A DNA stretch of 61,803 bases from Dehalococcoidia bacterium (GCA_041494685.1 JBGQBE010000014.1:1-61803), one strand, 5' to 3'; positions 21,383-52,089 are shown, counted from the stretch's first letter. Program-made: numbers and translations. Notes: generated from the letters alone by a model not told the origin.

Positions 21383-22063
21383 TCAGTTGCCGCACTTGCG
21401 GTTGACGCCGTCGAGGAACGTCCTTGCGACGTCCGTCATGTAGGGCGTGAGGAACGGCTCGCCCGGCTGCGGCGCGGGGCCGAAGAAGAGTTGCACATCG
21501 ATCACCAGACCCCTGCAGGCGATCGTCGCGGCGAGCGCGCGACCATTGCCGCCGGTCAGGCGCATCAGTTGGCTGCTGGCATCCGCCGCCGGCTTGCCGA
21601 CCGACTCCATCAGCACGACAGTCGGGCCTGTGATGCCGCCGATGGCCGTATCGCTCATGGAGTAGCCGATGCGGCCGACCCGAGCGCCCTGATCGTCGGG
21701 CAGCGTGATGGCGAGCGAGAGGTCGCTCTTCGTTGTGTCCGGCAACTGCTTCGGGATGAAGGGCTTGAAGCCGAGGACCGCCTCGAACTCGCCCGGGTCC
21801 TTGACACGCTGGAGCGCGATGACGCCGCCCGGCAGGCCCAGATCCGCCTGCGTCGGGATGTGCTCGGCGCCGGCGACCTCGCTCACGCGGTGGATGGCCC
21901 GCTGGTCCTGCACGATGTAGACGACCGAGAAGGCGGCCGCCGCGACGATCGAGAAGAACACCACGCTCGCGCAGAGCACGCCGGCAAGGCGCGGGGGACT
22001 GTTGGGCCGCGATACCGAGGCGATCACACCAGATCGAACGGCCTGGGTACCTGCCTGTATCAC
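21383..22063 (-). CDS. Hypothetical single-TM protein (start uncertain)
   Basis: N-terminal hydrophobic helix, host-like codon usage. Confidence 0.65.
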   Translation of the reverse strand: MIQAGTQAVRSGVIASVSRPNSPPRLAGVLCASVVFFSIVAAAAFSVVYIVQDQRAIHRVSEVAGAEHIPTQADLGLPGGVIALQRVKDPGEFEAVLGFKPFIPKQLPDTTKSDLSLAITLPDDQGARVGRIGYSMSDTAIGGITGPTVVLMESVGKPAADASSQLMRLTGGNGRALAATIACRGLVIDVQLFFGPAPQPGEPFLTPYMTDVARTFLDGVNRKCGN

Positions 22064-22249
22064 TCCCTATCTGCCTCTCCGGTCAAGCAGCCACGGGGGT
22101 GATCCGCGCCGCTTGGAGTTCGCCCGCCTGCTGCGCGATCGTACGAAACATCAGCGCGCCAGGCGAGGGCACTGTCAAGTCCCGGAGCGGGAGCGGCTTC
22201 GACGCGGACCGCCCGCCGAACCACTGAGGCGCAGCCAGGGACGGATCCC

Positions 22250-22891
22250 ATGGCCGCTAACATCGCCGCCATCCGCACGAGCGTGCGCAAGGACCTGCAC
22301 GACGAGGACGCCGCGGCCTACGTCTGGACGGACGCCGTGCTCGACCGCCACATCGGGCGCGCCGTCACCGATTACAGCATCGCCGACCCGCTCGAAGTGA
22401 AGAGCACGCTGACCACCACGGCCGCGTCGCGCGACCTCGCCATCGCCTCGCTGACGCCGCTCGTCGCGGTCGAGGCGGTCGAGTGGCCGGTGGGCGAGTT
22501 CCCGCCGCGGCGCGTCGGCTTCAGCGTCTGGGCAACGACGCTGACCATGGACGTCGTCGCGGCGCCCGCCGGCGTCGAGAACGTCAACGTCTACTGGCTG
22601 CAGCAGCACACGCTCGACGCGAGCAGCAGCACCGTCCCGCCGGCGGACGACGACCTCATCGCGCTGGGCGCGGCCGGCTACGCCGCGCTCGACCGCGCGG
22701 TCTACGCGGTCAACAAAATCAACACGGGCGGCGCCGATGTCTGGGCGCGCTACAACGCCTTCGGCGACGGCGCGCTGCGCCAGTTCCGCGACGAGCTGCG
22801 GCGGCGCGGCCGCAACGCGACGGTCCGCAGCCGCCGCATGTTCAGCACCGACGCGCCGTCCGTGTTCGAGCAGAGCCGGGTGAAGTACTAG
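22250..22891 (+). CDS. Putative phage head-tail adaptor-like protein
   Basis: IRTSVRKDLHDED...WTDAVLDRHIGRAV resembles adaptor/neck N-termini; first of three coupled genes. Confidence 0.6.
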   Translation: MAANIAAIRTSVRKDLHDEDAAAYVWTDAVLDRHIGRAVTDYSIADPLEVKSTLTTTAASRDLAIASLTPLVAVEAVEWPVGEFPPRRVGFSVWATTLTMDVVAAPAGVENVNVYWLQQHTLDASSSTVPPADDDLIALGAAGYAALDRAVYAVNKINTGGADVWARYNAFGDGALRQFRDELRRRGRNATVRSRRMFSTDAPSVFEQSRVKY

Positions 22892-22893
22892 CC

Positions 22894-24870
22894 GTGCGCA
22901 CGCTCTCCTCCGCGCTCACCACGGCGCAGCAGGCCGCGTCGAGAGAGCCGTACGTCGCCGTCACCGTCGAGAACCTCATCGGCAGCCTGCGGCGGCTCGA
23001 CTTCACGCAGCTCGACAACTCGGGCTCCAGCCTCGGCCGGCACGGCGTGGCCGTCGCCGGCGACGGCAGCGTGACGCGCGTGGCCGGCAACGGCGCGGGC
23101 CGCATCGACATCCAGCACATCGCCAACCCGGGCGCCGGCAGCAGCTGGGGGAGCTGGGGCGTCCTCGCCAGCGGCAAGGGCAACCAGCTCGCCGTCGCGG
23201 CGTGCGGCGCGCACGTCGTCGTCGTCTACAACGACGCCGCCGGCACCGGCATCTACTACGTCGAGAGCACGGACTACGGCGCGTCGTACGGCGCGGAGAC
23301 GGCCGTCACGACGGCCGCGGCCGCGGTGCTCGGCCTCGCCGTCGCGCTCAAGAACACGGGCGGCGACCTCGCCGTCGCCTGGCTCACCGCCGCCACGCTC
23401 AACATCATCAAGCGGACGGCCGGCGCCTTCGGCGCGGCGAGCGGCGCCGGCATCTCGACCGCCAGCCTCAACGGCGTCGCCATGTGCTACGGCGCGGACT
23501 GGGACATCGCGGTGACGGGCGAGGAGGTCACGACGAACAAGCGCACGCTGTGGACCATCGCCTACGGCGACGGCTTCGACCTCGCCCCCAACACGTGGGG
23601 CGTGCTGAACGCGCAGCAGCAGGCGGAGAGCGACAGCGGCGTCGCGCTCATCGCGCCGGCGATCGTCTACACCGACGGCTACCACCTCGACTACGTCGAG
23701 CAGGCGACGTACGGCGGCGGCAAGACGCGCGCGTACCGCACGACGCTGCACCAGCTGCAGTCCTACGTCGCCGGCGCCAACATCATGAGCACGCCCGTGC
23801 CGACGAGCTACTTCGGCGTCAACGGCCTCGCGCTCGCGGCCGACGTGAGCGGCACCGGCTGGTACTACGAGACCGCCGCCAACCTCGTCACGCGCGCGCC
23901 GCAGGCGCAGTCGCTGACGACCCTCACGGCCGACGTGCTGGCGGTGGCCATCGACGAGCGGGGCGACGCGACGCGCGGCTACGTCGAGCTCGACAACGCG
24001 GGCGGCGCCTACGCCGGCCCGCCGGCGCCCATCGCCCTGGGCAACCGCGTCAACCTCTCGTGGGGCTACCGCACGGCCAGCGGCCTGCAGTCGTCGCAGA
24101 TGGCCGGCCTCTCCATCGCGTCGTACGAGTACCGCCGCGCCGGCGGCGTCTCCACGCTGCGGCTGCAGGTCGAGGGCGGCTGGGAGCTGCTGCGGCGCAA
24201 CCGGCAGCGGGCGCAGGTCGTGCAGACGTCGGGCGTGTCGTGGTTTCAGCTGTTGTCGCGCGTCATGTCGCGCGCCGGCCTCAACCTCACCAGCTCGGGC
24301 GCGTCGGCGCGCGCGACGGGGACGACGCCGCAGTTCACCATCGACCCGCAGACCTCGGGCTTCGACGCCGTGCAGCAGGCGCTGGCGTTCCTCGCGGACC
24401 GCATCCGCATGAACGTGCTGGGCGGCGTCCTGACGGAGCGGCTGGCCGGCGCGGCGAGCACGTACACGTACGGCGGCGCGCACCCGCTGCGCGAGGCGCG
24501 GCTGGTCGGCGCGCCGCCGCCGGTGAGCGACGTGCAGGTCCACGGACTGCTGGCCATCGGCGAGGACATCGACTACGCGAGCGCGGCGGTCGGGCTCGGC
24601 GCCAGGGAGCTGGCGCGCGACCTCAACGCCATCAGCGGCGCCAACGCCACCACGAGCGCGGCGGCGCGGCGGCGCCAGCGCGCGCTCGACGCGCCCGCGG
24701 GCGCGCTCGTCGTGCCGCCGAACTGCGGGCAGGAAGTGCTGGACCTGGTGGACTTCACGGACGCGGCGATATCGGCGTCGGCGGTGAAGCGCCGCGTCGC
24801 CGGCATCGACTGGCGCTACGAGCGCCGCCGCGGCGTCTACGAACAGACGCTGCACCTGGGGGCCGCATGA
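22894..24870 (+). CDS. Putative virion structural protein (Asp-box beta-propeller + tail hub-like C-terminus)
   Basis: STDYGASY Asp-box, beta-rich G/T/A/S composition, C-terminal VPPNCGQEVLDLVDFTD...RRVAGIDWRY hub-like pattern. Confidence 0.6.
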   Translation: MRTLSSALTTAQQAASREPYVAVTVENLIGSLRRLDFTQLDNSGSSLGRHGVAVAGDGSVTRVAGNGAGRIDIQHIANPGAGSSWGSWGVLASGKGNQLAVAACGAHVVVVYNDAAGTGIYYVESTDYGASYGAETAVTTAAAAVLGLAVALKNTGGDLAVAWLTAATLNIIKRTAGAFGAASGAGISTASLNGVAMCYGADWDIAVTGEEVTTNKRTLWTIAYGDGFDLAPNTWGVLNAQQQAESDSGVALIAPAIVYTDGYHLDYVEQATYGGGKTRAYRTTLHQLQSYVAGANIMSTPVPTSYFGVNGLALAADVSGTGWYYETAANLVTRAPQAQSLTTLTADVLAVAIDERGDATRGYVELDNAGGAYAGPPAPIALGNRVNLSWGYRTASGLQSSQMAGLSIASYEYRRAGGVSTLRLQVEGGWELLRRNRQRAQVVQTSGVSWFQLLSRVMSRAGLNLTSSGASARATGTTPQFTIDPQTSGFDAVQQALAFLADRIRMNVLGGVLTERLAGAASTYTYGGAHPLREARLVGAPPPVSDVQVHGLLAIGEDIDYASAAVGLGARELARDLNAISGANATTSAAARRRQRALDAPAGALVVPPNCGQEVLDLVDFTDAAISASAVKRRVAGIDWRYERRRGVYEQTLHLGAA

Positions 24871-25091
24871 CGACGCGCAGCATCATCCGCCCGGCCATCC
24901 TCAAGGTCTGGGACAACGTGAACTGGCTGGCCGACGTGCAGGTCGTCGGCAGCCTGCACGTCTGGTTGAAGGCCGTGCCGGTGGCGCGGAACATCGCCAG
25001 CGTCGAGATGGTGGTCGGGCGCAAGGTGGCCGTCGCCATCTTCGACGAGACCAACCCGACAGACGCCGCCGTCATCGCCGTCTGGACCTAG
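24867..25091 (+). CDS. Small all-beta protein, putative gp5/gpV-type OB-fold
   Basis: ATGA overlap; MTTRSIIRPAILKVWD...ADVQVVGS...VPVARNI...GRKVAVAIFD..NP.DAAVIAVW. Confidence 0.6.
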   Translation: MTTRSIIRPAILKVWDNVNWLADVQVVGSLHVWLKAVPVARNIASVEMVVGRKVAVAIFDETNPTDAAVIAVWT

Positions 25092-51817: not shown

Positions 51818-51907
<90 letters not shown>

Positions 51908-51916
51908 ACTGGACGG

Positions 51917-51999
51917 AGAACCAAACCAAGAACCTAGAACCCAGAACCTAAGACCGGCGCTCTGTCGGCCCCGATCCTATGTCCTGGGTTCTGCGTTCG
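51917..51999. repeat. Degenerate AGAACCW / GGTTCT inverted heptamer cassette in tRNA spacer
   Basis: agaacca aacca agaacct agaaccc agaacct ... cgatcct atgtcct gggttct gcgttcg. Confidence 0.7.
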
Positions 52000-52002
52000 C
52001 GA

Positions 52003-52089
52003 TGGCGGAGAGGGCGGGATTCGAACCCGCGAGGCTCATCGCCTACCGCTTTTCGAGAGCGGCACCATCAACCACTCGGACACCTCTCC
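52003..52089 (-). tRNA. tRNA-Ser(CGA)
   Basis: GGAGAGGTGTCCGAGTGG...CCGCT-CTCGAAA-AGCGG, GGTTCGAATCC, ends GCCA; TATACT -10 just upstream. Confidence 0.97.

What the first reader, a model, noticed from the sequence alone, without database searches (positions are those of the whole stretch)
22250..25091. Orphan three-gene virion module with host-like codons: candidate domesticated (GTA-like) particle genes
Seen: three intact, tightly coupled genes (2-nt gap, ATGA overlap) with almost purely G/C third positions, flanked by ordinary host genes. No integrase, att repeats, terminase, capsid, tail tube, tape measure or lysis genes are nearby. Inference from motifs: a head-tail adaptor, an Asp-box propeller fused to a tail-hub-like domain, and a stand-alone OB-fold like the gp5/gpV spike base, which together would give a minimal nearly tailless attachment device. 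From memory, unverified, similar trios occur in Dehalococcoidia chromosomes. Known: GTAs are often split over several loci and ameliorated to host composition.
Basis: partly seen in the sequence, partly recalled or inferred. Interest (0 to 1): 0.8.

Follow-up and report, generated by a model that had tools for sequence, protein, structure and literature searches.

The report
Tail-tip genes of a tamed phage
These three genes encode the neck adaptor and receptor-binding tip of a virus-like particle whose other genes lie elsewhere in the genome. Dehalococcoidia bacteria have inherited the whole set like ordinary genes, so it is a candidate new gene-transfer-agent-like system.

Summary
There are three intact, tightly coupled genes: g1 (22250-22891), g2 (22894-24870) and g3 (24867-25091). 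Their GC3 is 0.97-1.00 and host genes flank them.

Predicted folds identify g1 as a head-to-tail adaptor. g2 is a gp27/gp44/VgrG-type central hub with a six-bladed lectin/sialidase-like propeller inserted at residues ~42-340. The OB-fold assignment for g3 is inconclusive.

The trio is not an orphan. The same genome holds a packaging operon with TerL, an HTH protein and an SPP1-type portal on contig C37, and a scaffold plus HK97 capsid pair on contig C1.

- **Distribution in the order:** all parts are single-copy in 39-41 of 41 genomes.
- **Distribution in the class:** portal and g2 co-occur in 110 of 201 genomes sampled.
- **Selection:** dN/dS is 0.09-0.19.
- **Ancestral layout:** other orders hold everything in one ~14-kb locus.
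- **Regulation:** a 23-nt promoter-like motif occurs only twice in the genome, before g1 and before the scaffold gene. The packaging operon has a LexA-type box in 12 of 12 genomes checked.

My best reading is that this is the tail-tip module of an ancient, SOS-linked, domesticated phage particle system that is probably GTA-like. Particle formation and DNA transfer are untested.

This scan has already noted the same system on other Dehalococcoidia DNA. I found no paper describing it.

The parts
22101..22123 (+). Promoter-like control motif (GATCC-N-CGCCGCTTGGAG-N-TCGC), 127 nt upstream of the g1 start. An identical copy lies upstream of the scaffold-capsid operon on contig C1.
   Evidence: The motif has exactly 2 zero-mismatch hits in the 3.29-Mb genome, here and at C1:122917(-). 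The next best hits have 4 mismatches. It is partly conserved upstream of the g1 operon in relatives L013, L014, L018 and L027.
22250..22891 (+). g1, 213 aa: head-to-tail adaptor (portal-binding neck protein).
   Evidence: AF2 model pLDDT 84. Foldseek matches adaptors of KHP30 (E 2e-6, TMt 0.60), P1, crAss001, Pa223, A4, GP4, SU10, T7 gp11 and RcGTA 6tba_2A. PHROG phrog_399 'structural protein' matches at E 0.008. There is no Pfam hit. Conserved in 20 of 20 loci. dN/dS is 0.10-0.16.
22894..24870 (+). g2, 658 aa: central tail hub of the gp27 / Mu gp44 / VgrG / Tal-N type, carrying an inserted beta-propeller.
   Evidence: AF2 pLDDT 91.8. Foldseek PDB matches 7aef_q at E 2e-14 and 1wru at TMt 0.68. 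BFVD hits are 'Tail protein', gpD and gpP. VIA-align matches 9gtr_q at Z 25.1, 6j0m_A at 24.1, 9ki1_G at 23.0 and 7q5p_A at 23.1. These hub matches span model residues 11-658 with about 300-319 aligned.
23017..23913 (+). Six-bladed beta-propeller (residues ~42-340 of g2), lectin/sialidase-like, inserted in the hub. Putative glycan or receptor-binding module.
   Evidence: VIA-align matches fucose lectins AFL 4d52_C (Z 24.8), AAL 1ofz_A (24.4), RSL (24.3) and sialidases (Z 23), all over model range 42-340. One Asp-box-like S-x-D-x-G motif lies at residues 125-129; S125 is invariant and D127 and G129 are at least 90% conserved.
24867..25091 (+). g3, 74 aa: small all-beta-looking protein, translationally coupled to the hub gene. 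Possibly an OB-fold plug like the N-terminus of gpV/gp5.
   Evidence: Conserved after g2 in 20 of 20 loci. dN/dS is 0.09-0.15. The Atlas gives a lead to a PF04717-bearing cluster at score 0.93. hhalign against P2 gpV aligns in register with gpV residues 17-47, but at probability 1.2% and E 0.044. No Pfam, PHROG or PDB sequence hit.
21383..22063 (-). up226: divergently transcribed 226-aa protein of unknown function with an N-terminal hydrophobic stretch. It is a conserved neighbour of the g1 operon within this family; whether it belongs to the system is uncertain.
   Evidence: tblastn finds it beside the trio in 8 of 20 relatives' loci, all of family f1 (L013, L015, L018, L019, L027, L031, L032). 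No Pfam or PHROG hit.

Best explanation
The trio is the distal (neck and tail-tip) module of an ancient phage-derived particle system. The class Dehalococcoidia inherits this system vertically, and in this genome it is split over three loci.

Shown:
- g1 has the fold of a head-to-tail adaptor.
- g2 has the fold of a trimeric central tail hub with an inserted lectin-like propeller.
- g3 is a conserved 74-aa partner.
- Contig C37 carries an operon: three or four small proteins (two look membrane-bound), then a large terminase with intact ATPase and nuclease motifs, a small HTH protein and an SPP1-type portal.
- Contig C1 carries a coiled-coil scaffold-like gene and an HK97 capsid gene.

Inferred mechanism:
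1. DNA damage removes LexA from the operator that overlaps the packaging-operon promoter.
2. The head operon and the adaptor-hub operon fire together through their shared promoter element. The HTH protein of the packaging operon may drive this.
3. Scaffold, capsid and portal build a prohead, and the terminase fills it with DNA.
4. The adaptor closes the portal. The hub, plugged by g3, forms a very short tail whose propellers bind a surface glycan on a recipient cell.

The genes sit at least ~107 kb apart and no integrase or replication genes accompany them. The particle therefore cannot carry its own full gene set, so it would act like a gene transfer agent.
For: **Folds.**
- g1 matches adaptors.
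- g2 matches hubs and a propeller.

**Other loci in the same genome.**
- Capsid: phrog_212 at 8e-74, PF05065 at 1.6e-13, and ~40% identity to siphophage capsids.
- Portal: PF05133 at 2e-19, phrog_64 at 2e-28.
- TerL: Terminase_6C at 3.9e-5. Its motifs are conserved in 13 of 13 aligned sequences.

**Vertical inheritance in the order (41 genomes).**
- g2 in 40 of 41, portal in 41 of 41, TerL in 40 of 41, capsid in 39 of 41.
- Single copy, with identity falling with kinship.
- G040 lacks g2, TerL and capsid together, and keeps only portal scraps.

**Distribution in the class (201 genomes).**
- Portal in 127, g2 in 117.
- Both in 110, portal only in 17, g2 only in 7, neither in 67.

**One-locus arrangement elsewhere.** Found in G037, G221 and G064.

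**Selection.** dN/dS is 0.09-0.19 for the trio and capsid. Host PMT is 0.18-0.26 and dnaN is 0.015-0.03, with similar dS.

**Co-divergence.** g2 against portal gives Mantel r 0.64, p 1e-4, from 11 genomes.

**Shared motif.** The 23-nt motif has 2 of 2 genome hits, before g1 and before the scaffold gene.

**SOS link.**
- A LexA-type box lies between -35 and -10 of the packaging operon in 12 of 12 genomes. 7 are perfect and 5 have one mismatch.
- The only other perfect TAGAAC-N4-GTTCTA box in this genome heads an imuB-like/dnaE2-like operon.

**Not a prophage.** No att-like repeats. No integrase among the ORFs scanned.
Against: - There is no evidence of expression, particles or packaged DNA. No RNA run could be listed.
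- I identified no tail tube, tape measure, endolysin or small terminase. The holin-like reading of the first operon gene rests on my reading of hydrophobic stretches only.
- Genes c15, c22 and c14, which sit in the cluster in other lineages, were not found in this genome by tblastn. The set here may be incomplete.
- Several relatives show genes in pieces (G015, G020, G030, G033, G036). This could be decay or assembly error.
- 24 of 201 class genomes have only one of portal or g2.
- The TerL Walker A motif reads GKN, not GKS/T, in all 13 sequences.
- The g2-portal divergence correlation is only moderate.
- The g1 and scaffold promoters in this genome carry no LexA box. The proposed LexA-to-HTH-to-late-promoter cascade is my inference.
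- The g3 fold is unresolved.
Confidence: 0.7

Rival explanations
1. The particle is made but does something other than gene transfer. It could be an SOS-induced killing or lysis particle (bacteriocin-like), a device for DNA export or eDNA release, or a means of disposing of damaged DNA.
For: SOS-type control is typical of bacteriocins, tailocins and prophages as well as some GTAs. A lectin-bearing hub would suit any cell-targeting device. No transfer data exist.
Against: A complete packaging motor with conserved ATPase and nuclease motifs, plus a portal, is kept everywhere. This argues that DNA-filled heads are the selected product. No sheath, tube or toxin domain was seen in the ORFs scanned.
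Confidence: 0.17
2. It is still a self-propagating virus: a 'grounded' or very stable prophage of a small short-tailed phage family that co-speciates with its hosts.
For: In some genomes all genes lie within about 14 kb. IMG/VR lists 35 contigs with the capsid. 22 of these have at least 50% capsid identity, and 19 of those 22 also carry one or more other genes of the set. Compact contigs such as L086 look phage-like.
Against: - In this genome the three loci lie on different contigs. The capsid genes are at least ~85 kb from a contig end and the trio at least 22 kb, so the two are at least ~107 kb apart.
- Host genes interrupt even the compact versions: cupin, glycosyltransferase and a defence island.
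- No integrase, replication or repressor genes were seen.
- The genes are single-copy, with order- and class-wide presence and host-like dS.
Confidence: 0.07
3. It is a decaying prophage remnant with no function.
For: Fragmented copies occur in a few genomes (G030, G033, G036) and G040 has lost the set. Tail and lysis genes are missing.
Against: Reading frames are intact in most genomes across a class. dN/dS is 0.09-0.19. Catalytic motifs are conserved. Promoter elements are conserved.
Confidence: 0.03
4. The trio has been exapted for a capsid-independent role, such as a surface lectin complex.
For: In this genome the trio stands alone with its own promoter. 7 of 201 class genomes have g2 without a detected portal.
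Against: 110 of 117 g2-positive genomes also have the portal. The adaptor fold only makes sense on a portal. The promoter motif is shared only with the scaffold-capsid operon. G040 lost the parts together.
Confidence: 0.03

Closest known systems
RcGTA-type gene transfer agents of Alphaproteobacteria (Rhodobacter capsulatus GTA; structure 6tba/6toa)
   Same: - Phage-derived head, packaging and attachment genes kept by vertical descent over a large clade.
- The genes are under purifying selection, host-regulated and spread over several loci.
- There is no integrase.
- The RcGTA adaptor is among the fold matches of g1.
   Different: - Independent origin: the capsid is nearest to siphophage capsids at ~40% identity.
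- The portal is SPP1-type and no HK97-type portal was found. PF04860 gave no hit over cut-off in 5 genomes.
- No tail tube or tape measure was found. A hub with an inserted propeller sits directly after the adaptor.
- A LexA-type operator is present. From recall, RcGTA is instead controlled by CtrA/GafA and quorum sensing.
- Function is untested here.
FpGTA of Faecalibacterium prausnitzii (PMC12946183; I read passages only)
   Same: According to the passages read, FpGTA is a podovirus-like, short-tailed GTA-like element. It is encoded by two operons ~125 kb apart and lies outside the Alphaproteobacteria.
   Different: FpGTA has experimental support from particles, proteomics and packaged 4.6-8.9 kb host DNA. 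It is in a different phylum. I made no sequence comparison with it here.
Central baseplate hubs: T4 gp27, Mu gp44, P2 gpD, VgrG, eCIS Afp8/Pvc8, siphophage Tal N-terminal domain
   Same: The g2 hub part superposes on these at Z 22.7-25.1 with ~300-319 aligned residues. Foldseek E values are 2e-14 to 2e-9.
   Different: - Identity is 8-15%.
- There is no Pfam hit.
- A 300-residue six-bladed propeller is inserted after the first ~40 residues.
- No fused gp5-like needle is present. g3 is a separate 74-aa gene.
- No sheath, tube or wedge genes lie nearby.
Head-to-tail adaptors of short-tailed phages (T7 gp11, SU10, KHP30, crAss001)
   Same: g1 matches in size (~200 aa) and fold, with TM 0.5-0.6.
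   Different: Identity is 8-16% and there is no Pfam membership. In those phages the adaptor is followed by a nozzle, not by a gp27-type hub.
Fucose-binding propeller lectins (AAL, AFL, RSL) and GH33 sialidases
   Same: The six-bladed propeller fold matches at Z 23-25 over residues 42-340. One Asp-box-like motif is conserved.
   Different: Identity is 9-14%. I did not examine sugar-binding or catalytic residues, so the ligand is unknown.

Membership tests
Gene transfer agent (viriform) | Phage-derived structural and packaging genes inherited vertically by the host lineage and kept under purifying selection | tested here: met
   The parts occur in 39-41 of 41 genomes of the order. Portal is in 127 and g2 in 117 of 201 class genomes. 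dN/dS is 0.09-0.19.
Gene transfer agent (viriform) | Not self-transmissible: no integration or replication genes, and the genes are too dispersed to be packaged together | tested here: inconclusive
   The three loci lie on three contigs, with the capsid and the trio at least ~107 kb apart. No integrase was seen among the scanned ORFs. Capsid capacity is unknown, and I did not scan the whole genome for integrases.
Gene transfer agent (viriform) | Particles package more or less random host DNA | not testable with these tools
   This needs sequencing of DNase-protected DNA from particles.
Gene transfer agent (viriform) | Particles deliver DNA to recipient cells | not testable with these tools
   All carriers found are uncultured MAGs.
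Gene transfer agent (viriform) | Production under host regulatory control | tested here: met
   This is met at sequence level only. A LexA-type box lies in the packaging-operon promoter in 12 of 12 genomes. The same box heads the imuB/dnaE2-like operon. Binding was not tested.
Head-to-tail adaptor (g1) | Adaptor fold (helical bundle plus beta domain) of ~200 aa, encoded between head and tail genes | tested here: met
   14 Foldseek matches have E <= 0.001, all among the listed neck or adaptor chains. In one-locus relatives the gene lies between the capsid-side genes and the hub.
Head-to-tail adaptor (g1) | Sequence membership in a curated adaptor family | tested here: not met
   There is no Pfam hit at E <= 1. 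The only PHROG hit is phrog_399 at E 0.008.
gp27/gp44/VgrG-type central hub (g2) | Hub fold of two tube-like beta-barrel domains plus connecting domains | tested here: met
   Z is 22.7-25.1 to CIS, PVC, Mu gp44 and VgrG. Foldseek probability is 1.00.
gp27/gp44/VgrG-type central hub (g2) | Sequence membership (Phage_GPD or related Pfam families) | tested here: not met
   There are no Pfam or PHROG hits. The PDB profile search gave nothing below E 0.5.
gp27/gp44/VgrG-type central hub (g2) | Trimer that caps a tube or neck and carries a spike or plug | not tested
   The complex-prediction tool never accepted the job.
gpV/gp5 OB-fold spike base (g3) | OB-fold domain of PF04717 type | tested here: inconclusive
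   The Atlas lead scores 0.93 to a cluster in which 24% of members carry PF04717. hhalign against P2 gpV gives E 0.044 and probability 1.2%. There is no Pfam hit at E <= 1.
BNR/Asp-box sialidase or fucose-lectin propeller (g2 residues 42-340) | Six-bladed propeller fold | tested here: met
   Z is 24.8 to AFL, 24.4 to AAL and 23-24 to sialidases.
BNR/Asp-box sialidase or fucose-lectin propeller (g2 residues 42-340) | Catalytic or sugar-binding residues | not tested
   I noted only one conserved S-x-D-x-G motif.
Integrated prophage | Integrase, att repeats, and contiguous lifecycle plus structural genes | tested here: not met
   There are no att-like repeats and no tRNA nearby. Host genes abut both sides. 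The structural genes are split over three contigs.

The most novel reading that the evidence does not exclude
Dehalococcoidia, a major uncultured class of soil, aquifer and marine bacteria, carry their own independently evolved gene transfer agent. It would be a head with a tail reduced to an adaptor plus a lectin-bearing hub. It would be switched on by DNA damage through a two-step circuit: LexA releases a packaging operon, and that operon's small HTH protein then fires the dispersed head and tail-tip operons through a dedicated promoter element. If so, SOS-coupled DNA exchange is a built-in, class-wide trait of these organisms.
Probability: 0.4. Interest if true: 0.9.

Novelty: new variant of a known kind. 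Interest (0 to 1): 0.78.

Why it matters
Few gene transfer agents are known, and most are in Alphaproteobacteria. A class-wide, selected, SOS-linked particle system in Dehalococcoidia would add an independent origin in a phylum with no genetic tools and few cultures. It would also offer a mechanism for gene flow and DNA repair in slow-growing subsurface communities. The set is a minimal particle with a seven-gene core, which could be rebuilt in a tractable host. The hub with an inserted lectin propeller is an unusual way to combine tail tip and receptor binding in one protein. For annotation, it explains why virus-detection pipelines flag these host fragments as viral.

Tried and rejected
- **Family and sequence searches.** Pfam and PHROGs on g2 and g3 gave nothing. 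PDB sequence-profile searches gave only E >= 0.5 for g2. For g3 the best hit was 4jiw_D at E 0.89, which from recall is a PAAR-repeat entry; it is not significant.
- **Cultured phages.** tblastn of g2 against 50,697 phage records found no match. Clostridium phage FA70, the best capsid match, shares only the capsid (40.6%) and weakly the portal (24%, E 1e-4); no g1, g2 or g3.
- **Other portal and terminase families.** Portal PF04860 gave no hit over cut-off in 5 genomes. Terminase_6N PF03237 gave 0 of 5.
- **Upstream genes of relatives.** tblastn of c4, c5, c20, c15, c22 and c14 against this genome found nothing. These are either not core or too diverged.
- **IMG/VR with the g2 alignment.** The search for related loci could not run on it because it has no conserved stretch. 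I used the capsid protein instead.
- **RNA evidence.** No RNA holder was listed.
- **att sites.** Only imperfect GC-rich repeats were found.
- **Encapsulin reading of the capsid.** I considered this and dropped it, because portal, terminase and adaptor co-occur with the capsid.
- **Literature.**
  - 'gene transfer agent' with Chloroflexi returned 36 papers; I judged the 15 listed from titles and abstract starts and none was relevant.
  - With Dehalococcoidia it returned 2 papers, with the same result.
  - With 'new' and Chloroflexota from 2022 it returned 11 papers, with the same result.
  - Dehalococcoidia with terminase, portal and capsid returned 0 papers.
  - A five-term search on Chloroflexota, portal, capsid, conserved and domesticated returned 23 papers, none describing this system.
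  - Subscription journals and supplements were not searched.
Full report
**1. Observation**

| Gene | Coordinates | Length | Junction |
|---|---|---|---|
| g1 | 22250-22891 | 213 aa | starts at ATG |
| g2 | 22894-24870 | 658 aa | GTG start, 2-nt gap after g1 |
| g3 | 24867-25091 | 74 aa | ATGA overlap with g2 |

GC3 in the coding frame is 0.91-1.00. That is at or above the top of the range of the other window genes, 0.82-0.97.

The neighbours are ordinary host genes. rpsF-ssb-rpsR lies upstream and an M20 peptidase immediately downstream. Further out are signalling, hydrolase and methyltransferase genes. These results cover the 26 ORFs between 9.4 and 37.6 kb. No tRNA is near, and no att-like direct repeats flank the trio.

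**2. What the three proteins are**

None of the three has a Pfam hit at E <= 1. The only PHROG hit is phrog_399, 'structural protein', on the g1 N-terminus at E 0.008.

*g2.* An alignment of 28 sequences gave an AlphaFold2 model with pLDDT 91.8.
- Foldseek against the PDB matched central baseplate hubs. These included an Algoriphagus eCIS at E 2e-14, Mu gp44 at TMt 0.68, PVC, AFP, diffocin, pyocin, T4 gp27, VgrG and the phage 80alpha baseplate.
- Against BFVD it matched 'tail protein', gpD and gpP entries.
- VIA-align showed that the hub matches run from model residue ~11-19 to 657-658 with only ~300-319 aligned residues. Examples are 9gtr_q at Z 25.1, 6j0m_A at 24.1, 9ki1_G at 23.0, 7q5p_A at 23.1 and 1wru at 22.7.
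- Residues 42-340 match six-bladed propellers. These are fucose lectins AFL (Z 24.8), AAL (24.4) and RSL (24.3), and sialidases (Z ~23).
- The propeller is therefore an insertion within the hub, not a simple N-terminal fusion.
- One Asp-box-like S-x-D-x-G motif (S125, D127, G129) is conserved.

*g1.* A 16-sequence alignment gave a model with pLDDT 84. It matches head-to-tail adaptors: KHP30 at E 2e-6, the P1 connector, crAss001, Pa223, A4, GP4, SU10, N4, T7 gp11 and the RcGTA virion chain 6tba_2A.

The evidence is weak:
- The protein atlas places it with Chloroflexota clusters. At rank 17 (score 0.93) it points to a viral cluster in which 24% of members carry PF04717.
- hhalign against P2 gpV aligns it in register with gpV residues 17-47, but at probability 1.2%.
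- A PDB profile search gave nothing significant.

The OB-fold idea remains a lead only.

**3. The trio is not an orphan**

In relatives, tblastn found g1-g2-g3 in the same order in 20 of 20 fetched loci. It also showed co-directional upstream genes. In family f3 these include a Pfam Phage_capsid protein.

Searching the window's own genome with those proteins found a capsid gene at C1:121364-122248. It matches phrog_212 at 8e-74 and PF05065 at 1.6e-13. A 185-aa coiled-coil, scaffold-like gene precedes it, and chemotaxis and monooxygenase genes flank the pair.

A family search found an SPP1-type portal at C37:24931-26280 (PF05133 at 2e-19, phrog_64 at 2e-28). Upstream of it lies a 474-aa large terminase (Terminase_6C at 3.9e-5).

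The packaging operon reads, in order:
- a 107-aa protein with three hydrophobic stretches
- two or three small proteins
- TerL
- a 127-aa protein whose G037 counterpart has an HTH (HTH_23 at 1e-5)
- the portal

An alignment of 13 TerL sequences keeps the motifs ARQxGKNELS, LLEVDEAQ, YGTxW, AGxDxxG, VDxTGxG and GHDD. I read these, from general knowledge of terminases, as Walker A, Walker B, the coupling motif and the three nuclease acidic sites. The GKN in Walker A is unusual.

**4. Distribution and inheritance**

Among 41 genomes of the order:

| Component | Genomes with it |
|---|---|
| g2 | 40 of 41 |
| portal | 41 of 41 |
| TerL | 40 of 41 |
| capsid | 39 of 41 |

These tallies include the unpublished genome G021. 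Without it they are 39/40, 40/40, 39/40 and 38/40.

The genes are nearly always single copy. Identity falls with kinship:

| Component | Within family | Other families of the order |
|---|---|---|
| capsid | 71-91% | 55-80% |
| portal | 75-86% | 66-74% |
| TerL | 66-78% | 55-68% |
| g2 | 44-62% | 32-35% |

G040 lacks g2, TerL and capsid and retains only portal scraps with a stop codon. That is a joint loss. G033, G036, G030, G015 and G020 show several genes in pieces, which could be decay or assembly error.

Across 201 genomes sampled from the class, portal is found in 127 and g2 in 117 (profile search). Both occur in 110, portal only in 17, g2 only in 7 and neither in 67. Whole families lack both, for example f26 at 0 of 9 and f28 at 0 of 5. 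Related genomes are not independent, so I do not quote the Fisher test as a probability.

All 74 genome-contig loci found with the portal come from MAGs. Their titles are Dehalococcoidia, Dehalococcoidales, Chloroflexota/Chloroflexi/Chloroflexia, one Thermomicrobiales and one 'uncultured bacterium'.

In G037, and in two genomes of other orders (G221, G064), all parts lie in one ~14-kb stretch. The order is small ORFs, TerL, HTH, portal, a gap, scaffold, capsid, c15, a gap, then g1-g2-g3. This is probably the ancestral layout. The gap after the portal is variable. It holds cupin and glycosyltransferase genes in G037 and a low-GC3 ABC-3C defence island in this genome.

In this genome, the contig positions put the capsid pair and the trio at least ~107 kb apart.

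**5. Selection**

Nei-Gojobori estimates come from my own script. GC3 saturation makes dS rough. Within genus g21 (three genomes):

| Gene | dN/dS |
|---|---|
| g1 | 0.10-0.16 |
| g2 | 0.16-0.18 |
| g3 | 0.10-0.15 |
| capsid | 0.11-0.19 |
| scaffold | 0.18-0.25 |
| host glycosyltransferase | 0.18-0.26 |
| dnaN | 0.015-0.03 |

dS values are similar across these genes. Within genus g11 (G010 against G023), g1 is 0.10, g2 is 0.135 and g3 is 0.094.

Pairwise identities of g2 and portal over 11 genomes (55 pairs) correlate, with Mantel r 0.64 and p 1e-4.

**6. Regulation**

The packaging operon of this genome starts behind TTGACT-17 nt-TAGTAT, with a perfect TAGAAC-N4-GTTCTA palindrome between the hexamers. 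The same arrangement, GAAC-N4-GTTC with 0 or 1 mismatch, lies upstream of the first operon gene in 12 of 12 genomes checked. 7 are perfect and 5 have one mismatch.

AGAAC-N4-GTTCT occurs 3 times in this genome against 0.7 expected from composition. The only other TAGAAC-N4-GTTCTA copy sits in the promoter of an IMS-family (imuB-like) plus DNA-polymerase-III-alpha (dnaE2-like) operon. lexA and recA have one-mismatch boxes upstream. That this palindrome is the Gram-positive-type LexA box is my recollection and was not tested.

The g1 promoter region carries a different element. The 23-nt motif at 22101-22123 recurs only once in the genome, upstream of the scaffold gene. Both are zero-mismatch hits, and the next best hits have 4 mismatches. 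A looser pattern has a third hit, before an unknown 290-aa gene on C37. The element looks like a promoter, with TTGGAG at -35 and a GATCGT or TAGTGT type -10. It is partly conserved before the g1 operon in four relatives.

In family f3, by contrast, the scaffold promoter itself carries a one-mismatch LexA-like box. My proposal that the operon's HTH protein activates this element is inference.

**7. Relation to known phages and to the literature**

The capsid is ~40% identical to capsids of cultured siphophages: Clostridium phage FA70, Pseudomonas Ab18-like phages and Gordonia phages. g2 has no tblastn match in 50,697 phage records. FA70 shares only the capsid and, weakly, the portal.

IMG/VR holds 35 loci with the capsid. 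22 have at least 50% capsid identity, and 19 of those also carry one or more of g1, g2, g3 or the portal. The three that do not are L079-L081. The 13 loci at 29-38% identity carry only the capsid. So the close ones may be host fragments flagged as viral, but I did not examine their flanks.

I found no paper describing this system. The closest published analogue I saw is FpGTA, a podovirus-like GTA-like element in two operons ~125 kb apart (PMC12946183, passages read).

Earlier notes of this scan describe what appears to be the same system in other Dehalococcoidia genomes. They are AI notes, and I used them only as leads.

**8. Verdict**

The trio is the adaptor-hub-plug module of a dispersed, vertically inherited, selected and apparently SOS-linked phage-derived particle system.

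It is a new, independent variant of the GTA kind as far as sequence evidence can show.

Particle formation, DNA content and transfer remain untested. Lysis, small-terminase and any tube functions remain unidentified.

Noticed in passing
G000 contig C37:21948-24866 (L048 7948-10866), next to the portal gene: Two minus-strand genes with clearly lower GC3 (0.6-0.75) encode ABC-3C-type defence proteins (DUF2326, CTD10, AAA_23). They occupy the slot after the portal, where other genomes have the scaffold-capsid genes. This looks like an acquired defence island at the break point of the old cluster.
   Followed up: partly
G000 contig C37:32548 (+), upstream of a 290-aa gene at C37:32613-33485 (P0083): A third, looser copy of the g1/scaffold promoter element (TGATC-N8-TTGGAG-N-T-N-GC, 3 hits in the genome) precedes a gene of unknown function. 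That gene has no family hit and no homologue in the relatives' loci I searched.
   Followed up: partly
window 21383-22063 (-): A 226-aa protein of unknown function with an N-terminal hydrophobic stretch is divergently transcribed from the g1 promoter region. It is conserved beside the trio in family f1 only. In relatives, 1.3-1.6 kb of extra co-directional genes (c5, c4 or c20) lie between it and g1, and these are missing here.
   Followed up: partly
L070-L076 (IMG/VR contigs), just after the capsid gene: A small protein 38-40% identical to g3 follows the capsid gene in 6 contigs (L070, L071, L072, L074, L075, L076). A g3-like protein therefore occurs twice in some versions of the cluster.
   Followed up: no
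G030:C1 617-646 kb (L021, L050, L051): In this complete genome the portal is in two pieces about 15 kb apart and TerL is in three frames, while the capsid and the trio stay intact. This looks like stepwise decay of the packaging half, or an insertion.
   Followed up: no
G030/G037 loci L021, L022: In family f3 the cluster ends about 1.5 kb from dnaN. In families f2 and f5 ruvB follows the trio. The chromosomal address differs between families although the gene order within the module is kept.
   Followed up: no
window 51818-52089 and 1457-1546: There are three tRNA-Ser genes with different anticodons (gga, cga, tga), two of them adjacent. They are unrelated to the finding.
   Followed up: no
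G000 contig C3:113002-114309 and 109560-113090 (L178): An imuB-like (IMS family) plus dnaE2-like operon lies behind a perfect LexA-type box with the same promoter layout as the packaging operon.
   Followed up: yes
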